A stretch of 42,529 nt of DNA, from the NCBI GenBank assembly GCA_964392315.1, contig CAYMOT010000002.1, positions 228,365-270,893 of the forward strand, read 5' to 3'. Made by a program: the position numbers and the translations under genes. This stretch comes from an uncultured Candidatus Saccharibacteria bacterium. GTDB lineage: Bacteria > Patescibacteriota > 4484-211 > JAGQKX01. Positions within the stretch are counted from its first letter, which is position 1; the number at the start of each line of letters is the position of its first letter. The notes below the pieces were generated by a model. It was not told where the DNA came from, did not search any database, and saw only the letters and a program-made list of their open reading frames with translations. This document shows, piece after piece, positions 8,748 to 36,900 of the stretch.

Positions 8748-8821
8748 TGCGGGGTCGTCTAACGGCAGGACTCTGGGTTTTGGTCCCAGCTATCGGGGTT
8801 CGAATCCCTGCCCCGCAGCCA
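8748..8821 (+). tRNA. tRNA-Gln (anticodon TTG)
   Basis: Acceptor stem TGCGGGG/CCCCGCA, anticodon stem CTGGG/CCCAG with TTG at 8780-8782, T-loop GTTCGAAT, encoded CCA end at 8819-8821; TATAAT upstream at 8724-8729. Confidence 0.97.
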
Positions 8822-19775: not shown

Positions 19776-21917
19776 TTATACGTGTAATTTCGTCTTACGT
19801 AGAGTTAAGGCGTTAATGACGACAATTACAGAGGAAAGACTCATTAATATAGCTCCAACTGCTGGGGTTAGCATAAATCCAAGAGGTATAAATAGTCCTG
19901 CTGCTGCTGGAATAGCGAGAACATTATACCCTGTCGCCCAGATAAGATTTTCTACCATTTTTCTGTATACCTTTCGGGACAAAACAATCAATCGTACAAG
20001 ATGCTGAGGATTGCTCTGCGTCAAAATAATATCTCCTGCCTCTACTGCTACATCTGTCCCAGCGCCAATTGCTACTCCAGCATTCGCTTGGGTTAATGCA
20101 GGAGCATCATTAACGCCGTCGCCGGCCATAACCACTACATTCCCCTGATCCTGAAGGTCTTTGATATGCCGATATTTATCCTCAGGTAACACTTCTGCAA
20201 ATACGGTATCTATTCCTAATCGTTTCGCTATAGACTCAGCTGATGATGTGGTATCACCGGTAAGCATAGCGACTTTTACTCCTAGTGTATGTAGTTCATC
20301 GACCGCTTGTTTGGATTCCTCTTTGACATCATCGCTAAGCCCAAGCATACCGATAATGCGTTCGTTGTCAGAAACAAATACTGGTGTCTTTCCTTCCTTA
20401 TTAAATTCATCTAAAATTTCTTGCGCTGATGCAGACATTAAGTTTTTTTGTTCCATAAGTCTTTGATTTCCGACAAAATATCTTTTATCACCAACTGATG
20501 CTTCCATTCCCATACCAGCTATATTCTTAATATTGGTTGCTTCACCATATAAGGCATTTTCTCGTTTAAGATAATTGATAATTGCTAATCCAATAACATG
20601 AGAGGAATGATTTTCTATACTCCCGACAATATTCAGTAATGATTCTTCATCACCATGGAGTATTTTTACATCGGTTACTCCAAATTCACCTTTGGTCAAA
20701 GTTCCTGTTTTATCAAACACTACATAGTCAGCACTCTTTATGATTTCAATCTTAGCCATATCTTTTATAAAAACCCCATTATTTACAGCTAGCTTCGTTG
20801 CTATTGTTGAAACAGTTGGTATCGCAAGACCGAGTGCATGTGGACAAGCAATCACAAGCACTGTAATGGCTAAAGTAGCAGCAAAGACAAATGGTTCGCC
20901 AATAAATAGCGACCAGATAATCAATGCACCAAACGACACAATTAATGCAGAAAATGTTAGCCATCTTGATGCCCGATCCGCCAATTTTTGTACTGACGGC
21001 TTGGTTTGCTTGGCGGAAGTAATCAAATCCTGGATTTGTCCAATGGTTGAATTTGCTCCTACTCGCGTTAATTTAATTTCTAACGAACCATCAATGTTTA
21101 TTGCACCTGCGACAACATCTGCGCCGACTGTTTTTTCAATAGGTTTGGATTCACCAGTAATATGGGATTCATTGAAATTACCACTTCCCAATACAATTTC
21201 ACCGTCTGCAGGAACCTTTTCTCCTGGCTTCACAATAACAGTATCACCTTCAACTAGCGACGTTATTTCAACTTCCTTGACCCCATCGTTAGTCTTTAGG
21301 TGTGCTTCTTTTGGCAACAGCTTTGCCACTTCTTGTAGTGCATCTCCTGCAGCTGTTGACGACTTTGCCTCAAGGAAATGTCCAAACAAAAGTATCCATA
21401 TAAGTGTTGCTATTTCTAAATAAAATTCGACCTCGATTCCTGGAATAAAGGTAGAAGCTGCCGAAAATAAGTATCCTGCACCTACTCCTAGTGATACCAA
21501 CGTCATCATGCCATACTGTCTAGCCATAATTTCGTGGCGTGCATGTTGGAAAAATACTAGACCGAAATAAAATATTATTGACGCTATACCAAACTCAACA
21601 AAAGGCCGTAATGTAAAATCAGGAGCCCCTAGAAACATGACCGCTGGTTCAGAAAAAAATGCGAGAGGAACCAATAATACTGTGACAATAAAAAATCGTT
21701 TTAGAAAATCTGCAGCCGCTTCTGGTGTCGCCATCATACTGGCATGATCATGGTGTGTTGACCCACTATCGATATCGCTCTTTTTGACAAGTTCCATTCC
21801 CCCACATTTGAGGCACTTACCTGGTGTATCCTGCTGTATCTCAGGATGCATGGGGCATGTATAGTACTCTCTTTGCTTTCCGTTATGAGTATGTTCATGA
21901 TTATTTGTATGCATCAT
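19776..21917 (-). CDS. copB: Copper-translocating P1B-type ATPase (CPH, P1B-3/CopB-like)
   Basis: His-rich N-terminus and YTCPMHP..KCLKCG metal domain; TGES, CPHALGLA, DKTGT, GDGVND, TM YN and MSLSS. Confidence 0.93.
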   Translation of the reverse strand: MMHTNNHEHTHNGKQREYYTCPMHPEIQQDTPGKCLKCGGMELVKKSDIDSGSTHHDHASMMATPEAAADFLKRFFIVTVLLVPLAFFSEPAVMFLGAPDFTLRPFVEFGIASIIFYFGLVFFQHARHEIMARQYGMMTLVSLGVGAGYLFSAASTFIPGIEVEFYLEIATLIWILLFGHFLEAKSSTAAGDALQEVAKLLPKEAHLKTNDGVKEVEITSLVEGDTVIVKPGEKVPADGEIVLGSGNFNESHITGESKPIEKTVGADVVAGAINIDGSLEIKLTRVGANSTIGQIQDLITSAKQTKPSVQKLADRASRWLTFSALIVSFGALIIWSLFIGEPFVFAATLAITVLVIACPHALGLAIPTVSTIATKLAVNNGVFIKDMAKIEIIKSADYVVFDKTGTLTKGEFGVTDVKILHGDEESLLNIVGSIENHSSHVIGLAIINYLKRENALYGEATNIKNIAGMGMEASVGDKRYFVGNQRLMEQKNLMSASAQEILDEFNKEGKTPVFVSDNERIIGMLGLSDDVKEESKQAVDELHTLGVKVAMLTGDTTSSAESIAKRLGIDTVFAEVLPEDKYRHIKDLQDQGNVVVMAGDGVNDAPALTQANAGVAIGAGTDVAVEAGDIILTQSNPQHLVRLIVLSRKVYRKMVENLIWATGYNVLAIPAAAGLFIPLGFMLTPAVGAILMSLSSVIVVINALTLRKTKLHV

Positions 21918-23689: not shown

Positions 23690-24961
23690 TTAGGGTGAGA
23701 TAAGTCTTTTGTTTGTCAGTACTACATCTTTTAGTAACTCGTTTACCAATTCTCGTTTTGCGTCGCGACTGCCACTTGTTGTTACTTTCTTGGCATATCC
23801 GACAAGGTCGAGATCCTTGGTGTGATGAAAAATTTTGTGATTATCCAAGACAGTATCGCGTAGCCTTTCATACTGCTCAATTGATTTCTTTAACTTATCG
23901 CTTATTTCTAAATCATCGGTGTTTTCGCTAATGAACCTCACAACTTCATCTTCAAGTTCTTTTTGTGACATATATTTGTTCTGATTACATTTTTTAAATG
24001 GTGTACGTACACAATGATAGTAAATATGTTCTCGATACCGACCACTCTTCAGCTTACGCCGCTTTAATTCGCCTGTAATGTTATATCCGCACTCACCGCA
24101 TTTAAATACATTTCTATAATCAAGCTCCACACTTCTCCACGGAGCTTTTTCCGGCACAGTCATTTTTACCTGTACTTTATCGAATAACTCTTTGGAAATA
24201 AGTGGCTCATGAGCACCCTCGTACCAGTTACCAGTATCTTTTGGGTATTCAAATTCGCCGTAGTAAAAAGAATTCTTGAGTACTCGGTAGATCATACTAA
24301 GAGGTACTTGTTTACCGTTTGGAGTTGTGACCCCTTCTTTATCAAACATTCGTTTTAGATCTCTGCCGTAGTAACAACCCTCTCCAAATAGTTCAAACAT
24401 CTCTTTAATACTGTCTGCTCGTTCAGGATCTTGAATAATTTTTTTAATGCCACCCTGAGATACATTCATGTATCCAATTGGCGCAGGGCCAGGTCGCCAG
24501 CCCATTTCACACTTTGCTCGAATGCCGCGCTTCACGTTTATTCCTTTCTGGTCGTTCTCTAACTTGGCCTGACTGCAAAGGATCATGAGGAGGAATTTTT
24601 GTCCCGGATCATTAGTAAACGTTTGTGAATACGTGCGTATTTGTTGTAGTTTCCCTTGATCCATTAAATCAACAAGTTGACCCAAGTCGCCTGCATTTCT
24701 ACTGAGCCTGTCTGGTGCCCATGTTAGTATTCCTCCAAATTCACCACGTCCAATATCCGTTATCAATTGCTTGAATATAGGACGTATCCCAGAATCTTTT
24801 GCAGAGTGACTTTCACTCCTAATGTCTCTAATCTGTAACCCTTCCTTTACTGCCAACTCAGTCATCTCCTTTATCTGAGAATCAATTGACATTGTCTGTC
24901 GTTCATCAGATTCGCTTGATTTACGGGCATATAAGCAGTAGTTGATACTTTCTTGCTCCAT
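23690..24961 (-). CDS. Large serine recombinase (resolvase + recombinase + Zn-ribbon)
   Basis: YARKSSE (catalytic Ser), WAPDRLSRN, GPAPIGY, HEPLISKELF, CGECG..YYHC. The ORF is open from 24991; ATG 24961 is preferred. Confidence 0.93.
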   Translation of the reverse strand: MEQESINYCLYARKSSESDERQTMSIDSQIKEMTELAVKEGLQIRDIRSESHSAKDSGIRPIFKQLITDIGRGEFGGILTWAPDRLSRNAGDLGQLVDLMDQGKLQQIRTYSQTFTNDPGQKFLLMILCSQAKLENDQKGINVKRGIRAKCEMGWRPGPAPIGYMNVSQGGIKKIIQDPERADSIKEMFELFGEGCYYGRDLKRMFDKEGVTTPNGKQVPLSMIYRVLKNSFYYGEFEYPKDTGNWYEGAHEPLISKELFDKVQVKMTVPEKAPWRSVELDYRNVFKCGECGYNITGELKRRKLKSGRYREHIYYHCVRTPFKKCNQNKYMSQKELEDEVVRFISENTDDLEISDKLKKSIEQYERLRDTVLDNHKIFHHTKDLDLVGYAKKVTTSGSRDAKRELVNELLKDVVLTNKRLISP

Positions 24962-25027
24962 CGAGGGAGACAATACCGCTAAAACCTTCAACAGCCTAGT
25001 CGTGGAGTATGTTCTATAATCTCCATC

Positions 25028-25756
25028 ATGGAATACTATAACGACTATTTCTCTTCGGATTTAAATTACTATAAATGGACGCTATGGCGGGAAGAGGCAA
25101 ATCGTTGGCTTGAATGTTTCTATGAAACTGATCCAGTGGCATATTTGAAATCAAGAAAACGGGTTTTACGTCCAAATGAACGAGATGGTTTTATGGCAGA
25201 GATAAAGACGCTTTATTTTTTGAAAAAACGATTAAAATTAGTAATAAACGAGATAGAGCCTAAAGATGGTCTACACGATATGTCTTTAACTGACCAAAAT
25301 GATGTGATTTGGAATGTTGAAATTAAGGCTCCTAAATGGATGGGTCAGGTAATGAGGAGTGATGACATTCCTATGGAAACCCGAAGGGAACGTATTAAAC
25401 GAGACAAGTATATAAATGCAGAAGGAGAGTGGTTTAATTCCTACGAACAAATTCAATATACATTAGAACATCCAGTCAATAAAGCATTACACAAATTTAA
25501 TCCATCAGAAAACAACTTACTTGTAATTTGCCCTGATCTCAAACACTCAATACATACAATGTTGGCAGTCGAGGCTATGCAAGAAAAAGATCCTGCCGAG
25601 CTACTTCGTCACTTAATTGAAATATTTGATCCCGAAAATAAAATATCTTGTGTATTGCTTCTTGAAACTCATTTAGTAGCAGATGCTAATCAAATTGAAT
25701 ACGATTTTATCGTTTGCCCAATATCGAAATCGTTACAGTTTCAATTTCAAGCGTAA
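25028..25756 (+). CDS. Hypothetical protein, putative PD-(D/E)XK nuclease fold
   Basis: GFMAEIK..HDMSL..NVEIK fits an E..D..ExK pattern; own TATAAT at 25015-25020. Confidence 0.55.
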   Translation: MEYYNDYFSSDLNYYKWTLWREEANRWLECFYETDPVAYLKSRKRVLRPNERDGFMAEIKTLYFLKKRLKLVINEIEPKDGLHDMSLTDQNDVIWNVEIKAPKWMGQVMRSDDIPMETRRERIKRDKYINAEGEWFNSYEQIQYTLEHPVNKALHKFNPSENNLLVICPDLKHSIHTMLAVEAMQEKDPAELLRHLIEIFDPENKISCVLLLETHLVADANQIEYDFIVCPISKSLQFQFQA

Positions 25757-25766
25757 GTCAGTCATA

Positions 25767-27257
25767 TCAAAAGCTCATGCCCCAAAACCCTCTTGTAATT
25801 GGTCTCCCTTTATCACTTCGGTGACTTCTCTTGCGCGGACGTTTTGGTTGTGATTTACGGATATCTTGCCCCAAGTAATTAATCATTAATGAGAACGCAT
25901 CAGCTAGGTCGTCGTGTCGTTCAGTGCCAAATCCAACGAGTTGTTGTATTAATACTTTTGCACCTTCTTTGGGGAATAAAACGTGGCCTGATTTAATAAA
26001 AGGTGTAGTTGTTGTGAGTCGTGCTCTTTTATCTTGCCCATGCACTTTTATTCCCTCAGCACGAACTAACCTTTCATTTAGCCGTTCTACTACTGCCATT
26101 TGATAGTTAACCTGCTCAACCAATACGATATAGGGCTTTCTGTCGAATTGACTAACTTGAGATTCAATAGTTTCACATGTCAATGGGAAATTCATTCGTT
26201 TGTTTATTGGTTCCGGAAGAATGTATATTTTAGTATTCTCTACGTAACCTGAAACATATGCGGTGACAATTGCAGTGTAGTCATTAGTATCCTCCTGACC
26301 GATAGCTGGGTCAACGCTTAGGACAACTTTTTTAACATCCTCCATTGGTGGTAACTGATCATAGTATTGTAACCAAGCTGGATGAACCACTTGGTCATCC
26401 GTTGCTACTATCTCCAATAAATATTCACGATGAAACGTAACAGGATCATTTATTTCTCTTTCAAGCGCTTTAATGTCATCAAAAGTCGGAAATCTTCCCG
26501 GCCACAAAATGTTGTTAGCTTTATCATAGAGTGGGTACTCTCTATAGACACCATCTACTGCATTTCCTTGAATCGCCTCTTTTAATCGTGCAATAAGGCT
26601 ATCATTATGTAGATAATTACCCACAACTATAATCTTGGTACTTTCTTGTCCCGCGGGGAGAATTTCGCCTTTAAACCATTCACTTGTCTTGTCTCTCATC
26701 TCCTGTGTTCGTACGCTTTGGGTATCCTCAACATCGTCAATGATGATCAAGTCAGGACGATTCTCTTTGTGCCTTATTCCCCTCAAGCTATTCCCAGGTG
26801 AAGATGCCATTATTCGTGCATCATACCTATCGAGGACTAAGGCACCTTTTTGCCATTCATCAGCATTTTCGAATAAATGCCCGAAATCTTTCTTTAAAAT
26901 CTCATTTGTTTCTAACTCCTTCTTGATGATATGGAGAAATAATTGTGCTTGTCGTTCTGTCTGACTACAGATCAAAACAAACTTCTTTTGTTGCCTTCCT
27001 AGAATCGACCACAATACATACGACAAGCTAACTATTGTTGACTTAGCAGAACCACGAAACGCTGTTATGACGGCGAGTTTCAAGTTTTCTGCTTCTGTAA
27101 GTTCAATAATCTCTCCGTGAAAAGATGCAGTTTCATATTTAATATACTGAGCAAAATATACATGGAAAAACCAATAATGGCTGTTAAGGCAGGTCTCTAT
27201 GCGAAATGTGCGATCCGACATAATGTTTTTATATATTTCTGCATCATGTTCATTCAT
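25767..27257 (-). CDS. terL: Phage terminase large subunit
   Basis: Walker A FRGSAKST, Walker B LIIIDDVED, nuclease motifs SVDPA, DYTAIV, VEQVNYQ, HDDLADA; SD GGAGGT 7 nt before ATG 27257. Confidence 0.9.
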   Translation of the reverse strand: MNEHDAEIYKNIMSDRTFRIETCLNSHYWFFHVYFAQYIKYETASFHGEIIELTEAENLKLAVITAFRGSAKSTIVSLSYVLWSILGRQQKKFVLICSQTERQAQLFLHIIKKELETNEILKKDFGHLFENADEWQKGALVLDRYDARIMASSPGNSLRGIRHKENRPDLIIIDDVEDTQSVRTQEMRDKTSEWFKGEILPAGQESTKIIVVGNYLHNDSLIARLKEAIQGNAVDGVYREYPLYDKANNILWPGRFPTFDDIKALEREINDPVTFHREYLLEIVATDDQVVHPAWLQYYDQLPPMEDVKKVVLSVDPAIGQEDTNDYTAIVTAYVSGYVENTKIYILPEPINKRMNFPLTCETIESQVSQFDRKPYIVLVEQVNYQMAVVERLNERLVRAEGIKVHGQDKRARLTTTTPFIKSGHVLFPKEGAKVLIQQLVGFGTERHDDLADAFSLMINYLGQDIRKSQPKRPRKRSHRSDKGRPITRGFWGMSF

Positions 27258-27690
27258 TACTATCACCTCCTTTCTTGTCAGTGTCTTTTTCTAGTAAATG
27301 TCCCCTTGTTAGTGCGATAGTGAGTAACTCCTGTTGATCTGGGGTTAACGTGCCATCATCCTCTTTGACTGTTGAGACTTCAACCCTGGTTTTGTAGTCT
27401 TTGTGTCGATTCTTAAGCCAAAATATGATCGCTGTCATATGTTTATCTTTTATGGCAGAAATGAGTTGTGACTCAGCCAAATCGTTGATCAGATGAATGC
27501 CCTCTGCCAATGCCTCATCTGATTTATCTCGAAATAGTTCATCTTCTTTTTTCCAGCGATAGTAGGTTGCTCTTCCAATACCTGTTTTTTCACAGGCAAC
27601 TTGAATGATTGGTGTTTTACGGATCTGCTCTATGAGCAAGTCCTTGTTTTGTTCAGTTTTTGCTATGACAGTGCCAGTTTTTTTAGGCAT
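27250..27690 (-). CDS. Terminase small subunit-like HTH protein
   Basis: IQVACEKTGIGRATYYRW HTH, AESQL..AIIFWLK; directly upstream of terL; start MPKK at 27690. Confidence 0.75.
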   Translation of the reverse strand: MPKKTGTVIAKTEQNKDLLIEQIRKTPIIQVACEKTGIGRATYYRWKKEDELFRDKSDEALAEGIHLINDLAESQLISAIKDKHMTAIIFWLKNRHKDYKTRVEVSTVKEDDGTLTPDQQELLTIALTRGHLLEKDTDKKGGDSNE

Positions 27691-28435
27691 AATTAATCCT
27701 CTCTGCTTTAATACCTGATAGGTTTTCAAAGCGATTAATGATGACTTCACAGTACGCGGGATCTATCTCGACCATAATGCAGCGTCGTTTGGTTTGTTCG
27801 CAGGCGATAAGCGTCGAGCCGGATCCACCAAATGGATCGTAAACAGTATCCCCAATACGAGTGCTGTTAAGAATCAGTCGGCGTAATAAACCAACTGGTT
27901 TCATGGTTGGATGTAACTTACTTTTATTGGGTTTCGGATACAGGATGACGGACTTATCTTTACTTTTATGAAATTCATGTGTTCCGTACCAGCCATATGC
28001 AATGAACTCGTGTTGTGGTAAGTAGTCCATTCGGCCAATGATGGAGTGATTCTTTATCCAAACAAGAAGCTGTGAGAACTTAACTCCGCTCAATTGCATT
28101 CCTTCACGCAAAGCGAAGATCATCTTGTCTGAATTGAAGATATAAAAAGCGTTCTTATTTGTAAGATGTGGGATGACAGGTTGTATCCATCGCTGCGTGA
28201 ACTCAGAATATTCTTGCTCAGTTTGCTCCTTGTCATTTGCGATGATTGTTTGATTACTTAATTTGGCAAACCCTGATTTATTCTCCACATATCCGACTCC
28301 ATAAGGAGGGTCCGTCAGAACGAGCGAAATAGATGTATCCATTAATGCACGTTGAATAATGTTCTTGTTGAGGGAATCGCCGCATATCAACAAATGCTCA
28401 CCTAATTTAGTAAAGCTGTCGATTTCTACTCGCAT
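27683..28435 (-). CDS. Beta-class N6/N4 DNA methyltransferase
   Basis: TDPPY (motif IV) precedes HPTMKP and DPFGGSGS (motif I). Confidence 0.92.
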   Translation of the reverse strand: MRVEIDSFTKLGEHLLICGDSLNKNIIQRALMDTSISLVLTDPPYGVGYVENKSGFAKLSNQTIIANDKEQTEQEYSEFTQRWIQPVIPHLTNKNAFYIFNSDKMIFALREGMQLSGVKFSQLLVWIKNHSIIGRMDYLPQHEFIAYGWYGTHEFHKSKDKSVILYPKPNKSKLHPTMKPVGLLRRLILNSTRIGDTVYDPFGGSGSTLIACEQTKRRCIMVEIDPAYCEVIINRFENLSGIKAERINYA

Positions 28436-29685
28436 AAAACAGCCTCCTCTCCAGTTAATTTTTCATAGCGTTTGATAATGAGGTCACAGAAAATTGGCTC
28501 GATTTCCATCATGAAGCAGGTTCGGTTCATCTGTTCGCACGCAATCAGCGTTCCACCGGAACCTCCATAAACATCCACCACAACATCACCTGGCTTGGTG
28601 CAGCGTCTTAATGGCTTCTCATGAAGCGTCACCGGCTTTTCGGTAGGGTGTTCGTAGTCTTGTCCAGCAATGCGCTTGACGAGCCAAATATCAAGTAAAT
28701 CCAAGATGTCATCAATCGTTCGGTTTCCGGTATCAATATCCTTATTCAGAATCTCGGTAAACTTAGTTGCAGTTGGTGAAAGATACGGATTACCAATAGT
28801 GCCATACACACACGGTTCATACACCTTACTAAATGCAACTTGTGACGTCATATTGGCGTTGTTCTTGATCCACAGACAGACGCGTTTGTTTGATATGCCA
28901 AGCTGTGTGTAGATGGACTGGAGAAGTCCGATATATTTCTGATCACACCAATAGAAAAAGTGACAATTCTTCTTTGTGTGCTTTAATAGATTTTGTATTG
29001 TCTTAACAAGGAAATTACTATACTCATTATCTGATTTGCTATCATTCGTCTTACCTCCATAGCCCTTCCGAGAACCGATGCCTTTGTTGTAGTCGAGTGA
29101 AATATTATACGGAGGGTCGCAGTACACCAAGTCTACTTTATTACCGTTTAACAACCTGTCTACATCAGCAAAATTGGTAGCGTCTCCACAGAGTACTCTG
29201 TGTCTACCAACTCTATACATATCGCCAATCTTTGTTTTAGGGCTATTAATGTTCGCAAGTTCATCTTCTATGTTAAATTCATCATCACTAATCCCAAGCT
29301 GTTCATCCCAAATGGCTGATAAATCTGCATCATTAAAGCCTACGTCCATTAGCAATTCGATATCGAAATCTTTTAATAGTTCATAATCCCATGCACCGGT
29401 ATTTTGATTAAGGCGAAGATTGAGTTCTTTTTCGCGTTCAATTTCGGGAAGATCAATGTATACGACGGGTACCTCGGTATATCCAAGATTTTTGGCAATC
29501 TTCAGGCGGAAATGCCCACCAATAACGACGTTATTACGATTTTCTGCTGCGTTGACGATAATTGGGTCAACAATACCAAAACGTTTGATACTCTCTGTCA
29601 GATTATCAATAGCTTTCTGATCCCATGATCGGGGATTGTATTCAGAAGGATTAAGTTGTTTTATCTTTACTATATGTATCTTCAT
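28426..29685 (-). CDS. ParB N-terminal domain fused to a beta-class DNA methyltransferase
   Basis: ParB-like YNPRSW..FGIVDPII..GGHFRL, then CDPPY, HPTEKP, DVYGGSGG; start MKIH at 29685 (ORF open from 29733). Confidence 0.9.
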   Translation of the reverse strand: MKIHIVKIKQLNPSEYNPRSWDQKAIDNLTESIKRFGIVDPIIVNAAENRNNVVIGGHFRLKIAKNLGYTEVPVVYIDLPEIEREKELNLRLNQNTGAWDYELLKDFDIELLMDVGFNDADLSAIWDEQLGISDDEFNIEDELANINSPKTKIGDMYRVGRHRVLCGDATNFADVDRLLNGNKVDLVYCDPPYNISLDYNKGIGSRKGYGGKTNDSKSDNEYSNFLVKTIQNLLKHTKKNCHFFYWCDQKYIGLLQSIYTQLGISNKRVCLWIKNNANMTSQVAFSKVYEPCVYGTIGNPYLSPTATKFTEILNKDIDTGNRTIDDILDLLDIWLVKRIAGQDYEHPTEKPVTLHEKPLRRCTKPGDVVVDVYGGSGGTLIACEQMNRTCFMMEIEPIFCDLIIKRYEKLTGEEAVLCE

Positions 29686-29689
29686 AGTT

Positions 29690-29810
29690 GTAGAGCGTAA
29701 ATAAAAAAAGCGGACGCCTGGGAAGAAAATCATTGTATTGATTTCTTTCCAAACGCCCGCTTTCGTTCACGGACACATAACTCATTGTATTGAGTGTTAT
29801 TTAATTGTGA
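29690..29810 (-). ncRNA. Candidate cis-regulatory leader RNA (attenuator)
   Basis: Lies between a promoter and the first gene; two hairpins share the loop TCA-ATACAA-TGA; has an alternative anti-terminator pairing. Confidence 0.5.
29703..29763 (-). terminator. Intrinsic terminator-like hairpin (about 25 bp) with U-tract, in the leader of the ParB-MTase operon
   Basis: Minus strand: AAAGCGGGCGTTTGGAAAGAAATCA-ATACAA-TGATTTTCTTCCCAGGCGTCCGCTTT, with the 3' arm ending in a 7-T run. Confidence 0.75.
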
Positions 29811-29814
29811 CTAT

Positions 29815-29843
29815 AATGTATTCCAACCTCATCTTACTGTCAA
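29815..29843 (-). promoter_or_regulatory. Sigma70 promoter TTGACA-17-TACATT driving the MTase/terminase operon
   Basis: Perfect -35 at 29843-29838, 17-bp spacer, TAnnnT -10 at 29820-29815. Confidence 0.7.
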
Positions 29844-29955: not shown

Positions 29956-32900
29956 ATGGCAGATATTGATAATATCCTTAGCAATTACACCACAGCAATC
30001 TCGACCAAATTTTCTCATGCAGAAACAAGTGAATTAGGATATCGTACGGATTTCGAACTACTTCTCAAAGGTGTTTTTGAATCCGTTAACATCACCCGAT
30101 TTGACCACGATGCCAAAGCTCGTCAAGGAAATAAGCCGGATTTTGTTGTGGTCAAAGATGATGTTCCGCTCTTATACATCGAGACCAAAGATATTGGTGT
30201 ATCACTAGACAAAGTCGAAAAGTCAGAACAAATGACACGCTATTTCGGCTATGCCAATCTCATTTTGACTGATTATGTTGAATTTCGGTTTTACCGAAAC
30301 GGTTTGGCATATGGTGAACCGATCAAGATTGCAGATTACGACAGTAAAGCACGTACCATCACTCCGCATTCAGAACATTACGAGTATCTTGCTAAGACAC
30401 TGATTGATTTCACTCAATCACACAAAGAACCGATTAAGTCTGGCAAGCACTTGGCAAAAATCATGGGAGGTAAAGCACAACGAATTCGCGACAATATCAA
30501 AGAAATACTCTCTAGCGAAAACGAGAGAAGTACCGAGTTACTAAGCGTATACGAAACCATAAAGAGATTACTGGTAAACGATCTGACCGAAGAATCATTT
30601 GCGGATATGTATGCCCAAACTTTGGTGTATGGCCTTTTTGTTGCCCGGTTCTACGATGATTCACTTGGTACATTCACTCGCCAAGAAGCTCGTGATTTGA
30701 TACCGGCCTCAAATCCATTCTTGGGTCATTTCTTTGACCATATCGCCGGGAGAAACTTTGAAAAACGACTCTCATATATTGTTGATGAGCTGTGTGAAGT
30801 GTTTACGCACGCCAATGTGGCGGACCTCATGCGACAACACTTCGAAACAACTTCTAAGAAGGGTACCCAACGTGGTCAGGATCAGGTGATTCACTTCTAT
30901 GAAGACTTTCTCAAAGAATATGACGATGTACTTCGTAAAAAAATGGGAGCCTACTATACCCCACTACCCGTAGTGCAATTTATTGTTCGGTCGGTCGATT
31001 ATTTACTCGAAAAAGAGTTTGGACTGACTGGTGGACTGGCGAGTACTGCCAAAACTGAAGATGGCGTGCACAAAGTACAAATTTTGGATCCCGCAGTCGG
31101 AACTGGTACGTTTATCAGTGATGTCATCGGCAAGATTTATACCCGGATAAAAGATAGCGGTCAAAAAGGACGCTGGCCTGCATATGTACATCATGAATTA
31201 CTACCTCGCATTTATGGATTTGAACTCATGATGGCTCCGTATACTATTGCCCATCTCAAGTTGAGTATGGCTCTTAAAGAAACCGGCTTTTTATATTTCA
31301 ATGAAACACGCTCAGGCAAAGCGCGACTTGGTATTTATCTCACCAATTCGCTTGAGGAAGTTAGTCAGCAACAGGATCTACTCGCCTTTGACTTTGGCGC
31401 CAGTATCGCCGAAGAGGCAAAAGAGGCTGCTAAGATCAAAAACGAAAAGCCAATTATGGTCGTCATCGGCAACCCACCATATAGTGTCAGTTCGTCGAAT
31501 AAAGGCAAGTGGATTACAGACTTAACCATGGTTTATAAGCATGGACTAAATGAGCAAAATATTAACTCTTTGTCCGATGACTATGTTAAATTTATTCGTT
31601 TCGCCGAACATTTTATTGAGAAAAATGGGAGCGGAGTTGTGGCGATGATAACAAACAACTCATTTTTAGATGGCATTACTCATCGCCAAATGAGAAAACA
31701 CTTACTGGAAACGTTCGATGACATCTATATTCTAAATCTTCATGGAGATACAAAAAAGAAGGAGGTTACCCCTGAGGGGAGAACAGATGAAAATGTTTTT
31801 GACATTCAACAGGGAGTGTCAATAAATATATTTGTTCGTAATAATTCAGAAAAGAAAGGTCCCGGTAAAGTTCACCATGTTGACTTATATGGAACAAGGG
31901 ATAACAAGTTTGAAATACTCAATAGCGCTACGATTAAAAATCTCAAGTGGAATACGATTGAAGTTGCTGACCCATATTACTTTTTTGTACCAAAGAATTT
32001 TGAGCTTGAAGAAGAGTACAGTAAAGGATTTAAACTTGATGAATCATTTATAAAATATAGTGCTGGGACTAAGTTTAGGAAGGATGGACTTTTGGTTAAG
32101 AGTCATTTTTCACCAGAGTCAGTTTTAAAAATGCTCGACGATATGCAATCACTACCAGTATCATCTTTAACTCAAAAATACGGATTCAAGGAAACAAACG
32201 ACTGGAAAGTAAGTGAAAAAAGGAAGCTTTTTGTGCAAAACGACGAAAACAACATTAGAAAAGTCTTATATAAACCCTTTGACTATCGCTGGACATATTA
32301 TCCCGTAAATTTTATCAATCAAATAATCCCTCGAGGAGATTCTAGGCTGAATTTAATGCAACATTTTATTCAACGTGAAAATATCGGTCTGATAACTAAT
32401 AGACAGATAGTAAATGAGGATTGGAGTCATATTGGTGTAACGCAAGTCTTAACTTCTCATGGAACTTATTACCTAGGTAATAAAGGACAAGACTATATAT
32501 TTCCGCTGTATTTGTATCATGAAAATGGAACTAAAACTTCTAATATAAAGATCGAGGTAGTTAACGAAATCGAGAAAACAGCTGGTCCGGTAACACCTGA
32601 AGATGTTTTAGACTACACTTTCGCTATCTTGCATTCACAAAATTATAGAGAAATATATAAGGAGTTTCTGAAGATTGATTTTCCACGTGTGCCCTATCCC
32701 AAAGACAAAGATACCTTTATAAAACTGATGAAGCTTGGGCAAGAGTTAAGGGAATTACATCTACTGGAATCAGCTAAAGTAAACAAATTTATCACTACAT
32801 ATCCCGTAACTGGTTCTGATACCGTCGAGAAACCCACATATAAAGAAGGTAATGTGTACATCAACGACGAACAATATTTTGGCAATGTGCCAGAAGTCGC

Positions 32901-33066
32901 CTGGAATTTTTGGATCGGTGGCTATCAACCTGCCCAGAAATGGCTCAAAGACCGAAAAGGTAGACAACTAACCAACGAGGATATTGAGCATTATCAGAAA
33001 ATCATCGTGGCGTTGGTAGAAACGGATCGGTTAATGAAAGAGATTGACAAAGTAATTGTCTTCTAG
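29956..33066 (+). CDS. Type IIG / Type ISP-like fused restriction endonuclease-N6 methyltransferase
   Basis: N-terminal KPD..IETK nuclease; GAYYTP, LDPAVGTGTF, GNPPY; C-terminal IDFPRVP..IGGYQPAQKWLKDR. No helicase domain. Extended -10 TGtTATAAT at 29940-29948. Confidence 0.9.
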   Translation: MADIDNILSNYTTAISTKFSHAETSELGYRTDFELLLKGVFESVNITRFDHDAKARQGNKPDFVVVKDDVPLLYIETKDIGVSLDKVEKSEQMTRYFGYANLILTDYVEFRFYRNGLAYGEPIKIADYDSKARTITPHSEHYEYLAKTLIDFTQSHKEPIKSGKHLAKIMGGKAQRIRDNIKEILSSENERSTELLSVYETIKRLLVNDLTEESFADMYAQTLVYGLFVARFYDDSLGTFTRQEARDLIPASNPFLGHFFDHIAGRNFEKRLSYIVDELCEVFTHANVADLMRQHFETTSKKGTQRGQDQVIHFYEDFLKEYDDVLRKKMGAYYTPLPVVQFIVRSVDYLLEKEFGLTGGLASTAKTEDGVHKVQILDPAVGTGTFISDVIGKIYTRIKDSGQKGRWPAYVHHELLPRIYGFELMMAPYTIAHLKLSMALKETGFLYFNETRSGKARLGIYLTNSLEEVSQQQDLLAFDFGASIAEEAKEAAKIKNEKPIMVVIGNPPYSVSSSNKGKWITDLTMVYKHGLNEQNINSLSDDYVKFIRFAEHFIEKNGSGVVAMITNNSFLDGITHRQMRKHLLETFDDIYILNLHGDTKKKEVTPEGRTDENVFDIQQGVSINIFVRNNSEKKGPGKVHHVDLYGTRDNKFEILNSATIKNLKWNTIEVADPYYFFVPKNFELEEEYSKGFKLDESFIKYSAGTKFRKDGLLVKSHFSPESVLKMLDDMQSLPVSSLTQKYGFKETNDWKVSEKRKLFVQNDENNIRKVLYKPFDYRWTYYPVNFINQIIPRGDSRLNLMQHFIQRENIGLITNRQIVNEDWSHIGVTQVLTSHGTYYLGNKGQDYIFPLYLYHENGTKTSNIKIEVVNEIEKTAGPVTPEDVLDYTFAILHSQNYREIYKEFLKIDFPRVPYPKDKDTFIKLMKLGQELRELHLLESAKVNKFITTYPVTGSDTVEKPTYKEGNVYINDEQYFGNVPEVAWNFWIGGYQPAQKWLKDRKGRQLTNEDIEHYQKIIVALVETDRLMKEIDKVIVF

Positions 33067-33072
33067 GGATGT

Positions 33073-33999
33073 ATGGAAGAAATAATCCCTCAATTAGAAA
33101 TCTATTCACCTCCCGATGGACGAATTTGTTTTTGGTGTCTCAAACCTGTATACAATTCTACAAAGTATCACATTATCCCTACTTACCTAACTTCATATAA
33201 AAATCATGAATACACACTGCCTGAAGGTGTTGTTTGTGGTGATTGCAATAGTATGTTTTCCATTGCTGAAGGATTACTTGTCGAGTTTTTTCAAGAACGG
33301 CTTGTATTCTTCAACGTACCCAAAAGAGATTCATCGCTAAGATCTGAAGTTAAATCATCACTTTATGATTATGTTACTGTTTCCCCTGGTAAGATTTCAT
33401 ATGATCTTAACCAAGCAGGGTTTACGGCAGTGTCAAAAAGTATTGCATTGAGATTAAAAGACCGGGGATTCGATTCTTCTTACTATAAAGCAAAATTAGA
33501 CAAGGACAATAACCTTCATAAAAAAGGATTATTGCATTGTGTTATTGCCAAAATTGCACTTGAGGCACTTTACTGTTTTTGGAGTGAATCAGAAGGAGAT
33601 AAATATATTTATGAAGAAATACTTAAGAGTAGCTCTCACAACATTCATAAACACAACAAGTCTATCTACAATTTCATTAATAAGACGGACACCAGGGTTG
33701 TAAATAACGTGCTTATGCTGGGAAGCAAAGAAGGATTGTATTCTGATTGGAACCTGAACTATAACTATTTACAACTTTCCTATATCGAGAGTTACCCAAT
33801 CATTTGGGTTCGGATTCTAGGATTGCTGTTTCTTGTTAATTATTTGCCCAATGGAAATAAAGATCTATCCGAAACTGCAGTATGGGAATTGGTGAAAGAA
33901 CATAATAATAGCAAAATCGAATATTTTATAAGCAAAGCACAGGAAGAAAAACTTGGAGACTACCGCGTCGAGAATTTAAAGCGCTACTTTTTCCAATAG
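33073..33999 (+). CDS. HNH endonuclease-domain protein
   Basis: CFWC..HIIP..VCGDCN zinc-binding HNH pattern at the N-terminus. Confidence 0.75.
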   Translation: MEEIIPQLEIYSPPDGRICFWCLKPVYNSTKYHIIPTYLTSYKNHEYTLPEGVVCGDCNSMFSIAEGLLVEFFQERLVFFNVPKRDSSLRSEVKSSLYDYVTVSPGKISYDLNQAGFTAVSKSIALRLKDRGFDSSYYKAKLDKDNNLHKKGLLHCVIAKIALEALYCFWSESEGDKYIYEEILKSSSHNIHKHNKSIYNFINKTDTRVVNNVLMLGSKEGLYSDWNLNYNYLQLSYIESYPIIWVRILGLLFLVNYLPNGNKDLSETAVWELVKEHNNSKIEYFISKAQEEKLGDYRVENLKRYFFQ

Positions 34000-36900
34000 T
34001 TCTTTTAGTAGGGTTGATAAAGTTGCAGTAGATACCCTAATTCCTTTCTTAGTAAAACCAGTATAAGACTTTGTGGTGATGTATTTTCTCAAATCAACAG
34101 TATTTTCATCGGGCACGTGAATTTTTAGTACTGAGCTTTTTGAATTGAGCCACGGAACTTTTCTCTCTTGTCTGTCTTTGATAGTAGCCAATACAGACAC
34201 TTGAAACTCATCCAAATCTTTTTTATTGAAGCCAATCCCATGATTGGTAAAAATCTCTTGTCCATTAGACGTTATCTTTTCGTTGATCCAAATACCTGTA
34301 CCATCTTCTGTCTCAGAAACAACATAAGTTTTGTTATCATCTCGAACTTCAAACATTTCTTTGAATTCATAACTATGTGTATTTTGATTTGCCCTGCCTT
34401 CTTTCTTATCATCTTTTGATTTGAGGTTCCTAGTTTGTTTTTTGTTGTTTGTATTTCTTAAAACGGCAATGACTCCTTCTTCACCATTTTTTTCAACTTC
34501 CTGAGTACTTGAACCACTATCTCTTTCTTCAAACAATGTACTATTACCTTCTCGCTTATCTTCAGTGATTTGATTAACCGATTTCTGAATCTTGGCACTA
34601 TAGGAAATTTTACCCTTACCAAAGAGCTGATTCAGTTCAGTTATGAACGATTCACGCTCCTTACCCGCCCATAATGAGTATGGTATCCGAGCAAAAGTCC
34701 ATCCAGCACTCTCTAATATTGCTTGCCTTTCAATATCTGATTGAACATAAATCTCTGATTCTTCTGATTCGAAATGTGTAGGCCCATCACATTCTATTGC
34801 TACTTTTTTGTTTGTTTCAATTTCAGTTAATACAAAATCAATCTTAAAACCACAGCTTTCTACCTGGTTCTGTAGAAGATATTTCTCAGGAGGAAAATTG
34901 TTAAGTAAAAAGTAGTAGACTTCTTCTTCAAAGAAAGAATCAAAAGGATTTAATTCTTGCGAAAAGAAGTTGATCTTCCCATTTTCTTCAGCGTATTCAA
35001 GGTATTTTTTAATCCAGATCCCATCTGGCCAACTATCTTTTTCTAATGAAGAAACAATATGTACTTGTGAGCGTGCTCTTGAAAATGCAACATTAACACG
35101 TCCTGCATTGATAGGTGCGCGAATATCTCCTCCTTCACCTGTTAATGGGAGATAGCGATTCTTTTCATTGGGGTCTGTAATAACTAGAGAATAAATAATA
35201 ATGTCTCTTTCGTCTCCTTGTATGCCTTCGATACTAGAAACTTTTACATCATCAGCCTCAATATATTCAGATAATAGCTCTGCTTGTTCATTAAAAAAGG
35301 TGAGCACACCTATTGAGCAGTCCTTGGTTTTTGGATCTGATTTCAAATCTGCAATAAGTCCATTAATATAATTTACCTCTGCTAGATTAGTTTTCGAAGA
35401 TAAGTCACGCTTTCTATCAGGTTTGATTATATGCGCAAGAATAACTCTGCTTGTATCTTTGTAAGGTAAATAGTTAGTGTTTATAACATTCAACTTCTTA
35501 CCTTTCACTTCATAGAAGTATTTGTTTGAGAAGCCAATTAGTTCTCTCGGTGATCTATAATGGTTTAGTAAAGTTTCTTGAGAAAATCCGGATAAATATC
35601 CAATATCCAGAACCGACTTCACGGAATCACCTTCACTTTTAATCTGTAAATGATCTGGGATTTGATTTTTATCTGCAATTCTTTTCAATATTTTGTTTGA
35701 TTTGAATGAAATCGAATCATCTCTCATCTGCTCGCTATCTCCAATGAGGAGGATATGTTTTGTTCTATACATTGCGGGTATTACGTATGCAAGATTGCAC
35801 TGAGATGCTTCATCTAAGATGACGTAGTCAAACATATTTGTTTGAGCGGGAATAACTCTACTTGCATCTTCTAAACTCATTATCCATATTGGGATTAATT
35901 CCGAAAGGGTTTTGAAATTATCAGGGTCTTGTTTTAAATTATCAAAAGTTTTGTATGCACGTTTGCTTTTACTAAGCGCTCTTCCAATCCTAGCCGTGAT
36001 ACCTCTCACAGTTTGTTTTTGGAGTTTAGCCCTTAGATTATTACTAATCCTATTATTTATAAAGTGTCTGACTTTTGTGTGATAAGAAAGCTTTTCTTTT
36101 GCTAGTAGCCGATTGATCTCATTAGGATTATTTATCTTTAACTCTTTGATTTCTTGTGCTATTCGGTAATAATCAAAAACCTTCTTTAACACAGTATCGA
36201 CTGAATTATTAGCGCAAAGCTTTTTGAGTTTTTCGTAAGAATTTGAATCTAAACCTCCAACATTAAGCATTTCCTTAAAAGATTCATGTTCTTGAGGAAT
36301 TAATAGACTATATTCTTTAAATATTAAATAGTCTCTAAATGTATTAAGTTCGCTGATTAACTTGTTTTTGCTTATGTCTTGTATAACAAGCTGTTCTACT
36401 TCTTCGATAATTTCCCTTGGAAGTTCTCCGGACTCTTTAGGTAAACCATAGTTCAATAACGCAATATTATTTTTAAAAAAGCGCAGAAGCTTGTTCTTTC
36501 GATCATAGAATTTATCGTCAATGATATCGATTACTCTAGTTAAAGTTTCAGAATAGTTATTGCTAAAGTCTACAAACGTGAATTTCCTATTGTAGTCTGT
36601 TAACTTATCAACTCTTTCCGAAAAGTCTTGGTTGAAGTCAATCATTTCGTTAATACTTTTTTCACTTTGCAATAGATTTTCATAGTATTCAGGAGAAATG
36701 CTTTTTATCGTGGCACTAATATTATTACTTCCTATATCGTATTCTCGGAGTTCATTTCGTTTATGATCCAATTCGAAATAAAGTCGTTCTGTATCAATAT
36801 AATTGCTAAAACTTTCAGTAATCCTCTCTAATTGCACGGAATCAGGATTTCCATTGCCTTGAGTAGCATACGTAGATAGAACGTTATTTATTCCTGCAAG

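What the first reader, a model, noticed from the sequence alone, without database searches (positions are those of the whole stretch)
29651..29843. Attenuator-like leader RNA with twin identical hairpin loops gating the MTase-terminase operon
Seen on the minus strand: a TTGACA-17-TACATT promoter, then hairpin 1 (ATAAC[AC]TCA-ATACAA-TGAGTTAT), then a terminator of about 25 bp with the same TCA-ATACAA-TGA cap and a U-tract ending about 18 nt before the ATG. The 12-mer repeats at 29782-29793 and 29730-29741. An upstream GTCCGT (29774-29769) can pair with GCGGGC (29760-29755), the terminator 5' arm, giving a mutually exclusive anti-terminator. Each loop exposes an AUG: the first opens a 44-codon uORF (29785-29651), and the second is in frame with ParB-MTase. 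Inference: this is a protein-, ribosome- or ligand-controlled switch that keeps the module off by default. I do not recognise it as a named Rfam family.
Basis: partly seen in the sequence, partly recalled or inferred. Interest (0 to 1): 0.75.

Follow-up and report, generated by a model that had tools for sequence, protein, structure and literature searches.

The report
Terminator-gated leader before methylase–terminase cassette
A conserved leader RNA of about 110 nt (a promoter, a small hairpin and an unusually long terminator hairpin) sits directly in front of a stand-alone DNA-methylase/terminase gene cassette; it most likely keeps the cassette off until an unknown signal allows read-through, and it matches no described RNA family.

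Summary
On the minus strand there is TTGACA-17-TACATT, a 5-bp hairpin (P1), and a 22-25-bp hairpin followed by U7 that ends 17 nt before the ParB-methylase ATG (29685). TCAATACAATGA caps both hairpins. Four distinct homologous leaders keep the promoter hexamers, the 17-nt spacing, both hairpins and the GUCCGU/GCGGGC pairing, with compensatory changes. A sister leader family is detected reciprocally by covariance models. It has 9 compensatory pairs and a covarying pairing between the P1 loop and the terminator 5' arm, which is evidence for an alternative, antiterminated fold. Across 145 distinct orthologous loci, a strong sense-strand leader terminator occurs in 20/36 loci whose upstream gene is divergent, against 8/99 where it is co-directional. 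It is therefore a gate and not an upstream gene's terminator. Rfam has no match. The gated genes are not a phage late operon. They form a stand-alone ParB-MTase/MTase/TerS-like/TerL-like/serine-recombinase cassette inside defence islands. Best reading: a new factor-dependent transcription attenuator whose trigger is unknown. The antiterminator in the window itself is short and only weakly supported.

The parts
29838..29843 (-). -35 hexamer TTGACA of the leader promoter
   Evidence: Invariant in window, L092, L007 and L093, while the 17-nt spacer differs in sequence but not in length.
29815..29820 (-). -10 hexamer TACATT. The inferred transcription start is near 29808.
   Evidence: Relatives have TATGCT or TATTCT at the same spacing. 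The start site is inferred, not measured.
29780..29795 (-). Hairpin P1: ACUCA / hexaloop AUACAA / UGAGU. It contains copy 1 of the 12-mer (29793-29782).
   Evidence: The stem is kept in all four group-A leaders. The equivalent P1 of sister group B has 4 compensatory pairs.
29769..29774 (-). GUCCGU, the 5' strand of the candidate antiterminator. It pairs with GCGGGC at 29760-29755.
   Evidence: It is in the MFE of the nascent RNA. Shuffle test: 8-bp helix, p = 0.004 in the window. An analogous helix is present in groups B and D with different sequences. It is invariant within group A, so there is no covariation.
29710..29760 (-). Long terminator hairpin of 22-25 bp with 4-6 G.U pairs. The apical UCA-AUACAA-UGA (29741-29730) is copy 2 of the 12-mer.
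   Evidence: There are two compensatory pairs among 4 sequences. The sense strand is more stable than the antisense strand (-37.8 against -32.5 kcal/mol).
29748..29752 (-). UUGGA in the terminator 5' arm, next to its internal mismatch. It is the candidate docking site for the P1 loop (UNCAA, 29789-29785).
   Evidence: 5 Watson-Crick pairs in L007 and L093; 4 of 5 with an A.G mismatch in the window and L092. The homologous pairing in group B covaries. For the window this is inference only.
29699..29709 (-). U-tract (T7, A, T3) immediately 3' of the hairpin. The T7 run ends 17 nt before the ATG.
28426..29685 (-). ParB_N + N6/N4 DNA methyltransferase (419 aa), the first gated gene. It has no Shine-Dalgarno sequence.
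27683..28435 (-). Second DNA methyltransferase (250 aa). Its start overlaps the end of the first gene.
27250..27750 (-). TerS-like HTH protein. The mechanical ORF is 166 aa; relatives are 141-146 aa, so the true start is probably near 27690.
25767..27266 (-). TerL-like protein (499 aa).
   Evidence: PHROG 38, E = 6e-84; Terminase_6C. There is no PDB sequence match.
23690..24991 (-). Large serine recombinase, the usual last gene of the cassette.
   Evidence: The same position is seen in L006, L007, L094 and L103.

Best explanation
This is a cis-acting transcription attenuator.

A sigma-70-type promoter (29843-29815) transcribes a leader of about 110 nt. By default the leader folds into P1 plus a 22-25-bp hairpin followed by U7, so RNA polymerase stops at about 29700, 15-20 nt before the ParB-methylase start codon. 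The five-gene cassette stays silent. Its expression requires read-through, because there is no room for another promoter.

Read-through would be obtained when the 5' arm of the terminator is held in an alternative fold before the 3' arm is made. Its base (GCGGGC) would be held by the upstream GUCCGU. Its sub-apical UUGGA would possibly be held by the P1 hexaloop. Because this alternative fold is far weaker than the terminator, it must be stabilised by a trans factor. That factor could be an RNA-binding protein that recognises the conserved AUNCAA hexaloops, or a small ligand.

Shown: the sequence elements, their conservation, covariation of the helices, the strand specificity, and the positional association with transcription-unit heads.

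Inferred: the transcription start, actual termination, the switch, and the nature of the trigger.
For: - Anatomy and fold.
- Four distinct homologous leaders keep the hexamers, the spacer length, P1, GUCCGU, GCGGGC and the terminator. Two pairs are compensatory (G-C to A-U; A-U to U-A).
- The leader is about as conserved as the coding sequence (71-74% against 68-87% nt identity). DNA 160-260 nt upstream is at about 50%.
- Non-Watson-Crick pairs are G.U on the sense strand. Across 32 leader terminators the sense strand is more stable in 30, with 94 G.U pairs against 24.
- Among 145 distinct loci, sense-strand hairpin + T-run with dG <= -25 occurs 22 times against 0 on the antisense strand.
- Among those loci, a strong leader terminator occurs in 20/36 with a divergent upstream gene against 8/99 with a co-directional one.
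- Sister family B is linked by reciprocal CM hits. It has 9 compensatory pairs. It also has a P1-loop:5'-arm pairing in one register in all three sequences, with 3 of 5 pairs compensatory and slid controls at 47% paired or less.
- Antiterminator helices of 5-8 bp sit at the same place in four sequence-unrelated versions.
Against: - There is no experimental evidence of termination or read-through.
- The window's antiterminator is only 6-8 bp with G.U pairs. It is invariant in its family, and the nascent-RNA fold has z of only -1.6 to -1.9.
- An unbiased test over 38 leader terminators found no general excess of antiterminator pairing (3 with p <= 0.05). The lineages used were chosen after inspection.
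- The P1-loop:arm pairing has an A.G mismatch in the window itself.
- No regulator or ligand is identified. The small ORFs upstream in some relatives have no informative domains.
- Only 4 (group A) and 3 (group B) distinct sequences are available.
- Some close relatives (L006, L094) lack the leader altogether.
Confidence: 0.55

Rival explanations
1. Processive antitermination. The terminator is a plain barrier, and the cassette is switched on when RNA polymerase is modified at or near the promoter. The modifying factor would be Q-, N-, put- or LoaP-like, and could be supplied by an infecting helper phage. P1 or the hexaloops would serve as the loading site. No alternative RNA fold is needed.
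For: - The architecture (a constitutive-looking promoter, a short terminated RNA, then terminase genes) parallels lambda PR'-tR' (established knowledge).
- Leader terminators are widespread upstream of these cassettes but share no sequence motif. That fits a mechanism that does not depend on the terminator's sequence.
- Most leader terminators show no antiterminator pairing.
- The very long stems suggest a barrier built to be tight.
Against: - No antiterminator gene lies next to the promoter. The upstream neighbours are unrelated defence genes that differ between loci.
- The -10-like TACAAT in the window's loops is not kept in L007 and L093, which have TCCAAT and TTCAAT.
- The covarying P1-loop:arm pairing in group B and the conserved anti-helix are unexplained by this model.
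Confidence: 0.17
2. Constitutive dampener. The terminator never switches. It passes a fixed small fraction of transcripts, which sets a low, safe level of methylases and terminase-like nuclease from a strong promoter.
For: - The terminator is far more stable than any alternative fold (about -32 kcal/mol, against -11.5 to -13 kcal/mol for the whole nascent leader).
- No trigger has been identified.
- Relatives without the leader exist.
Against: - A weak promoter would achieve the same result.
- Conservation of the P1 sequence and its hexaloops is not needed for a plain terminator. All 22 specified positions of the two 12-mers are invariant across relatives whose leaders are about 72% identical.
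- The covarying loop:arm pairing in group B is also not needed for a plain terminator.
Confidence: 0.13
3. Independent small RNA gene. The terminated RNA of about 110 nt is itself the product. It could be a protein sponge that displays two identical hexaloops to a dimeric binder, or an antitoxin-like RNA as in type III toxin-antitoxin loci. Read-through into the cassette would be secondary.
For: - A strong promoter plus a strong terminator should yield an abundant discrete RNA.
- It carries two hairpins with the same loop and closing pairs.
- The order repeat, terminator, gene recalls ToxIN (established knowledge).
Against: - The repeat is only 12-15 nt, not a tandem array.
- No ToxN-like gene follows.
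- No complementary target was found at the translation start regions of cassette genes or of the divergent gene.
- The twin loops are absent from sister groups B and D, which keep the rest of the architecture.
- The cassette still needs read-through to be expressed.
Confidence: 0.08
4. DNA-level element. The imperfect palindrome and the two 12-mers would be protein-binding sites on DNA. Candidates are operators for an HTH repressor, an att site of the serine recombinase, or a pac site for the TerS-like protein.
For: - TCA-N6-TGA is a small inverted repeat.
- The two copies lie 52-53 bp apart, about five helical turns.
- The cassette encodes an HTH protein and a recombinase.
Against: - The mismatches in the palindrome are G.U on the sense strand, which would be A.C on the other strand. 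The sense RNA is 5 kcal/mol more stable.
- A T-run follows on the sense strand only. Across loci the count is 39 sense against 3 antisense.
- Stem sequences turn over completely between lineages while pairing is kept.
Confidence: 0.04
5. Ribosome-mediated attenuation through the uORF that starts in loop 1, as in trp or his leaders. Alternatively, an N-terminally extended ParB-MTase that starts at the loop-2 AUG.
For: Both AUGs exist. The window has a 44-codon uORF and an open in-frame extension.
Against: - uORF lengths are 44, 2, 18 and 2 codons in the four relatives.
- The loop-2 AUG is out of frame in L007 and L093, and is stopped after 10 codons in L092.
- Neither AUG has a Shine-Dalgarno sequence, although downstream genes carry GGAGG.
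- Database proteins start at the 29685 ATG.
Confidence: 0.03

Closest known systems
Lambdoid late-gene control (PR' - 6S RNA - tR' with the Q antiterminator)
   Same: A constitutive promoter is followed within about 100-200 nt by an intrinsic terminator. It lies directly upstream of an operon that begins with packaging genes. A short terminated RNA is the default product.
   Different: - There is no Q-like gene next to the promoter.
- There is no conserved -10-like pause element.
- The gated unit is a five-gene cassette without structural genes.
- A competing RNA pairing is conserved here, which Q does not need.
ANTAR-type antitermination (dual hexaloop RNA bound by AmiR/NasR/EutV-like proteins)
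   Same: There are two hairpins with hexanucleotide loops of the same sequence in a leader that ends in a terminator. The idea that a dimeric RNA-binding protein reads both loops is also shared.
   Different: - The loop consensus here is AUNCAA, not A at position 1 with G at position 4.
- The second hexaloop caps the terminator itself, not an antiterminator hairpin that overlaps it.
- Rfam found no match.
- No ANTAR domain was seen in the proteins scanned.
Terminator/antiterminator riboswitches whose aptamer is a pseudoknot (for example preQ1-I, fluoride, ZTP, SAM-II-like folds)
   Same: The leaders are small. A hairpin loop pairs with a downstream segment, and formation of that pseudoknot competes with an expression-platform helix. 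Here the pairing covaries in group B.
   Different: - No sequence or structure match to any of the 4227 Rfam models.
- No ligand is known.
- The pocket would be very small.
- The pairing is imperfect in the window.
Counter-transcript-driven attenuation (pT181 repC, pIP501/pAMbeta1, pCF10 prgQ)
   Same: A terminator forms just 5' of the first start codon of a mobile-element operon. A short upstream 'pre-emptor' pairing competes with it, and an exposed hairpin loop is available for a trans-acting partner.
   Different: No antisense promoter was found inside the leader. The only plus-strand promoter-like site (29790-29817) points away from it. No complementary RNA has been identified.
Type III toxin-antitoxin loci (ToxIN)
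   Same: The order is promoter, repeated RNA motif, intrinsic terminator, then protein genes. The terminator would set the RNA:protein ratio.
   Different: There are only two copies of a 12-15-nt motif, embedded in different hairpins. No ToxN or AbiQ-like endoribonuclease is present.

Membership tests
Intrinsic (Rho-independent) terminator | Stable G+C-based hairpin followed immediately by a run of U on the transcribed strand | tested here: met
   The hairpin has 22-25 bp at about -32 kcal/mol and is followed by U7. It is longer than typical terminator stems.
Intrinsic (Rho-independent) terminator | Actual 3' ends of RNA at the U-tract | not testable with these tools
   This needs Term-seq or in vitro transcription.
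Terminator/antiterminator attenuator (generic) | An alternative pairing that uses part of the terminator stem, is mutually exclusive with it, and is supported by covariation | tested here: inconclusive
   GUCCGU:GCGGGC is in the nascent MFE and recurs in four sequence versions, but it is invariant in group A and there is no general enrichment. The loop:arm pairing covaries in group B and is imperfect in the window.
Ribosome-mediated (leader-peptide) attenuator, trp/his type | Conserved leader peptide ORF that overlaps the first pairing segment | tested here: not met
   uORF lengths are 44, 2, 18 and 2 codons in the four relatives, and there is no SD.
Any Rfam 15 family (riboswitches, T-box, ANTAR target, phage cis-elements, sRNAs) | Covariance-model score at or above the family's gathering threshold | tested here: not met
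   The only gathering-level hits are the tRNA in the window and a tRNA in 12 related loci. E-value scans give only sub-threshold generic hairpin matches; the best is 32 bits against a gathering score of 80.5.
ANTAR dual-hexaloop target | Two hexaloops with conserved A1 and G4, with the second hairpin overlapping the terminator 5' arm as an antiterminator | tested here: not met
   The loops are AUNCAA, with C at position 4. The second loop is the terminator's own apex.
Lambda-type Q antitermination unit | Q gene adjacent to the promoter, plus a -10-like pause-inducing element in the initial transcribed region | tested here: not met
   The upstream neighbour is a divergent Type ISP restriction enzyme. 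TACAAT in the loop is not conserved; relatives have TCCAAT or TTCAAT.
Counter-transcript attenuation | Antisense promoter and antisense RNA within the leader | tested here: not met
   There is no plus-strand promoter-like site with at least 9 of 12 matches that reads into 29700-29800. The consensus scan is crude, so this is a weak negative.
Type III toxin-antitoxin | Tandem array of antitoxin repeats followed by a ToxN/AbiQ-family endoribonuclease gene | tested here: not met
   The repeat search gives one 15-nt pair only. The downstream proteins are methylases and terminase-like.
Phage late (packaging) operon | Terminase genes followed by portal, capsid and tail genes | tested here: not met
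   After the TerL-like gene comes a serine recombinase and then non-structural genes. No structural PHROGs are hit. The same truncated cassette is seen in L006, L007, L010, L094 and L103.

The most novel reading that the evidence does not exclude
The window's leader would belong to an undescribed family of pseudoknot-forming 'ON' attenuators, riboswitch-like or protein-dependent. These would control a previously undescribed mobile cassette (ParB-methylase, methylase, TerS-like, TerL-like, large serine recombinase) embedded in defence islands of uncultured, probably Patescibacteria-type, bacteria. The switch would sense a signal of phage infection or element mobilisation, so the cassette is expressed only when its DNA is about to be packaged or attacked.
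Probability: 0.3. Interest if true: 0.75.

Novelty: new variant of a known kind. Interest (0 to 1): 0.55.

Why it matters
If the leader is a real switch, it is a new cis-regulatory RNA class from a poorly studied part of the bacterial tree. It would also give a handle on when a widespread but uncharacterised methylase-terminase-recombinase cassette is expressed.

The cassette sits among restriction-modification, CBASS and Pycsar genes. It looks like either a minimal packaging or mobilisation module (satellite-like) or a terminase-derived defence system. Knowing its trigger would help decide between the two.

The broader pattern is a testable regulatory rule for this gene family: unusually long leader terminators occur specifically where ParB-methylase cassettes head their own transcription unit.

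Tried and rejected
- **Known RNA family:** Rfam searches of the window, the leader and 12 related loci found none.
- **Phage and plasmid BLAST** of the region and of the leader gave no match.
- **Twin-motif pattern in IMG/VR** gave only three hits, all in giant-virus bins. The covariance model did not match them, so they are treated as chance.
- **A 16-mer from the terminator arm in IMG/VR** gave 33 hits. None matched the covariance model.
- **uORF and in-frame AUG:** not conserved.
- **Trans-acting sRNA with targets at cassette start sites:** no duplex better than shuffles, apart from the leader's overlap with itself.
- **Shared sequence motif among 26 leader lineages:** only T-runs.
- **Regulator candidates in small ORFs upstream of some relatives:** no informative domains.
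- **Known defence-system assignment for the TerS-like and TerL-like proteins:** no PADLOC hit.
- **T-box or tRNA idea:** the loops expose CAA and a tRNA-Gln(UUG) lies in the window. There is no T-box match, the middle loop base varies, and the tRNA is 21 kb away. This was judged a coincidence.
- **Literature searches** found no description of this leader or cassette.
Full report
**1. What is in the sequence**

Read on the minus strand, the 270-bp gap between the ParB-methylase gene and a divergent 1036-aa gene on the plus strand (29956-33066) contains the following.
- TTGACA (29843-29838), a 17-nt spacer, and TACATT (29820-29815).
- A small hairpin P1: ACUCA, hexaloop AUACAA, UGAGU (29795-29780).
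- GUCCGU (29774-29769).
- A long hairpin from GCGGGC (29760-29755) to GUCCGC (29715-29710). Its apex is UCA-AUACAA-UGA (29741-29730).
- T7 (29709-29703).
- The ATG at 29685.

The 12-mer TCAATACAATGA occurs only at these two places in the window, even with one mismatch allowed. The leader folds at -37.8 kcal/mol, z = -6.06, and none of 200 shuffles is as stable (one search gives z = -5.69). The consensus terminator scan missed the hairpin because the stem has a bulge.

The mechanical ORF list starts the methylase at the loop-2 ATG (29733). The 419-aa protein from 29685 is identical in length and sequence to a database protein, and relatives are 418-436 aa.

**2. What the leader gates**

The downstream genes are:
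- a ParB_N + N6/N4 DNA methylase;
- a second methylase;
- a small HTH protein that hits terminase small-subunit PHROGs;
- a terminase large-subunit homologue (PHROG 38, E = 6e-84);
- a large serine recombinase.

No portal, capsid or tail families follow. The upstream divergent gene is a Type ISP/IIG restriction-modification enzyme.

The same four- or five-gene cassette recurs in metagenomic contigs at 66-89% protein identity. In those contigs it is flanked by other defence genes: type I R-M plus CBASS, Type ISP, or a Pycsar-type TM effector. This is a stand-alone cassette in defence islands, not a phage late operon. Neither the window nor the leader matches GenBank phages or PLSDB plasmids.

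Relatives of the methylase carry Patescibacteria or Minisyncoccia labels. The host assignment of the window itself remains tentative.

**3. Homologous leaders (group A)**

Three further distinct sequences carry the same leader: L092, L007 (identical to L008 and L009) and L093. Their methylases are 89, 70 and 72% identical to the window's.
- **Promoter footprint:** TTGACA is invariant. The -10 is TACATT, TATGCT or TATTCT. The spacer is always 17 nt although its sequence differs. This is the footprint expected of a real promoter.
- **Conserved RNA elements:** P1, GUCCGU, GCGGGC, UUUGGAAAG and both hexaloops are conserved.
- **Terminator covariation:** two compensatory pairs (G-C to A-U; A-U to U-A) and several G.U pairs.
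- **Degree of conservation:** the leader is about as conserved as the coding sequence (71-74% against 68-87% nt identity). DNA further upstream is at random level, about 50%.
- **Hexaloops:** the consensus is AUNCAA. The middle base is A and A in the window and L092, but C and U in L007 and L093. 'Identical' loops is therefore an over-statement, although all 22 specified positions of the two 12-mers are invariant.
- **Family size:** a covariance model of the four sequences (R1) finds no other strong match in about 1.35 Mb of related loci.

**4. Ideas that fail**

The uORF that opens at the loop-1 AUG is 44 codons in the window, 2 in L092, 18 in L007 and 2 in L093. The loop-2 AUG is open and in frame only in the window. 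Neither AUG has a Shine-Dalgarno sequence, whereas the downstream cassette genes have GGAGG. Ribosome-mediated attenuation and an N-terminal extension are rejected.

**5. A wider family and evidence for a switch**

The orthologous genes of L012, L028 and L060 (identical to L110-L112) carry leaders of different sequence (group B). So do L010 and L106 (group D). The architecture is the same: promoter, P1 hairpin with a hexaloop, a short helix whose 3' strand is the base of the terminator's 5' arm, and a 21-bp terminator 23-40 nt before the ATG.
- **Link between groups A and B:** R1 scores L012 at 33.8 bits, L060 at 25.3, L028 at 14.4 and L010 at 13.9 at the right place and strand. A model of group B (R2) scores L093, L092, L007 and the window at 30.5, 28.1, 26.4 and 21.9 bits. 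Groups A and B are probably distant relatives.
- **Helix covariation in group B:** 32 predicted pairs, 9 of them with compensatory changes in only three sequences.
- **Loop:arm pairing in group B:** the P1 hexaloop is complementary to the segment of the terminator's 5' arm that straddles its internal mismatch (UUGGU:ACCAA, UAGCU:AGCUA, UUGAC:GUCAA). The pairing is in one register of a sequence-only alignment. Three of five pairs are compensatory, 93% of cells are paired, and slid controls reach 47% at most. This pairing cannot coexist with the terminator, so it is direct comparative evidence for an alternative fold.
- **Loop:arm pairing in group A:** the equivalent pairing, UNCAA with UUGGA at 29752-29748, has 5 Watson-Crick pairs in L007 and L093. 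It has an A.G mismatch in the window and L092. For the window this is only a possibility.
- **The short anti-helix:** 8 bp in the window (p = 0.004), 6 bp in L007 (0.046), L012 (0.18) and L060 (0.043), 5 bp in L028 (0.28), and 7 bp in L010 (0.008) by shuffling. These lineages were picked after inspection. An unbiased duplex test over 38 distinct leader terminators shows no general excess.
- **Nascent fold:** the MFE of the nascent window RNA is P1 plus this helix, with a modest z of -1.6 to -1.9.

**6. The terminator is a gate, not a neighbour's terminator**

I compared 145 distinct 260-nt regions upstream of orthologous ParB-methylase genes from metagenomes, IMG/VR and assemblies.
- **Strand:** a single hairpin followed by a T-run with dG <= -15 kcal/mol occurs 39 times on the sense strand and 3 times on the antisense strand. 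With dG <= -25 the counts are 22 and 0.
- **Neighbour orientation:** a strong leader terminator (dG <= -20) is present in 20 of 36 loci whose nearest upstream ORF is divergent, and in only 8 of 99 where it is co-directional. This is the opposite of what an upstream gene's terminator would give.
- **Stem shape:** the stems are unusually long, at 19-34 bp.
- **Strand stability:** the sense hairpin is more stable than its reverse complement in 30 of 32 cases, with 94 G.U pairs against 24. Choosing hairpins on the sense strand biases this comparison somewhat.
- **Room for a promoter:** in group A only 16-20 nt separate the hairpin from the ATG. The cassette can therefore be transcribed only by read-through.
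- **No shared motif:** the leader lineages share no sequence motif beyond T-runs.

**7. Mechanism**

The best-supported reading is a cis-acting, default-off transcription attenuator. Its read-through depends on stabilising a weak alternative fold of the terminator's 5' arm: the anti-helix plus, at least in group B, a loop:arm pseudoknot. In group A the sequence-conserved AUNCAA hexaloops are the likely recognition elements for a factor. I cannot identify that factor.

Rivals:
- processive antitermination by an element- or phage-encoded factor, which fits the lack of a common motif and the many leaders without an anti-helix;
- a non-switching dampener;
- an independent small RNA, although no trans target was found and there is no tandem repeat array;
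- a DNA-level site, which is contradicted by the strand-specific G.U pairs and T-runs.

No termination, transcription start or read-through has been measured. These steps are inferred.

**8. Comparison with known systems and novelty**

No Rfam 15 family reaches its gathering score in the window or in 12 related loci. Relaxed scans give only generic long-hairpin noise. Full-text searches found no description of the leader or the cassette, including the 224-motif survey.

The element works like a terminator/antiterminator leader. It fails the defining features of trp-type attenuators, ANTAR targets, Q units, counter-transcript systems and type III toxin-antitoxin loci (see the membership table). 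I class it as a new variant of a known kind.

Interest is moderate. The RNA family is small, and the switch is not demonstrated for the window itself. The association with an uncharacterised, widespread cassette and the covarying pseudoknot in the sister family still make it worth an experiment.

Noticed in passing
window 23690-29685 (minus strand); L006, L007, L010, L094, L103: ParB-MTase, MTase, TerS-like, TerL-like and usually a large serine recombinase form a conserved stand-alone cassette. It has no phage structural genes and always sits next to defence genes (Type ISP or type I R-M, CBASS, Pycsar TM). PADLOC has no model for the TerS-like and TerL-like proteins. It could be a minimal packaging or mobilisation module, or a terminase-derived defence system.
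   Followed up: partly
145 loci upstream of ParB-MTase orthologues (for example L024, L054, L130, L133, L160, L168, L175): Many unrelated lineages carry exceptionally long (19-34 bp) hairpin + U-tract structures 16-100 nt before the ParB-MTase start. They are enriched where the upstream gene is divergent (20/36 against 8/99).
   Followed up: yes
L012 2874-2996, L028 2875-2996, L060 2872-2996: In group B leaders, the sequence after the terminator repeats the 5'-arm motif CAAGA(G/U)A. The Shine-Dalgarno region and the start codon also lie in a conserved small hairpin (GGCA...AUGCC). This suggests an added translational layer in read-through transcripts.
   Followed up: no
window 29686-29702, compared with 28436-28460 and 27267-27290: The first cassette gene has no Shine-Dalgarno sequence; only a U/A-rich tract precedes its ATG. 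The second methylase and the TerL-like gene have strong GGAGG sites.
   Followed up: no
window 29790-29817 (plus strand): A promoter-like site, TTGAGT-16-TATAAT (10 of 12 matches), points towards the divergent Type ISP gene. Its -35 lies inside the DNA that encodes P1. The spacing is not kept in L007-type relatives, which have a 5-nt insertion and a different neighbour.
   Followed up: partly
window 8748-8821; L007 12226-12296: An identical tRNA-Gln(UUG) lies downstream of the cassette in both contigs. It is 1 kb from the recombinase in L007 and 15 kb from it in the window. The hosts are therefore closely related, and the DNA between the tRNA and the cassette is variable, as at an integration hotspot.
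   Followed up: partly
window 33976-38160 (minus) and 38385-39896 (plus): There is a 1394-aa SF1 helicase fused to an MTES_1575/DUF559-type endonuclease domain, and next to it a DUF2779/Cas4-like protein. These are further defence-like genes that extend the island beyond the Type ISP enzyme.
   Followed up: no
window 15399-17439 (minus): One gene has an N-terminal match to SduA (Shedu) and DUF4263 (16756-17439). Its neighbour hits PHROG 857 and PADLOC PDC-M43B (15399-16763). Together they may be another defence pair. A 713-aa ATPase (PHROG 12316) lies at 19776-21917.
   Followed up: no
L103 4860-5000: A relative at 66% protein identity keeps the window's promoter and start region (ATAGTCACAA) but has a different hairpin and terminator behind it. 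Leader modules may therefore be exchanged behind a conserved promoter.
   Followed up: partly
L006 690-1337, L094 5495-5911, L105 2984-3742: Some close relatives lack the leader. They have instead a small co-directional ORF (138-252 aa, no known domains) directly upstream of the ParB-MTase gene.
   Followed up: partly
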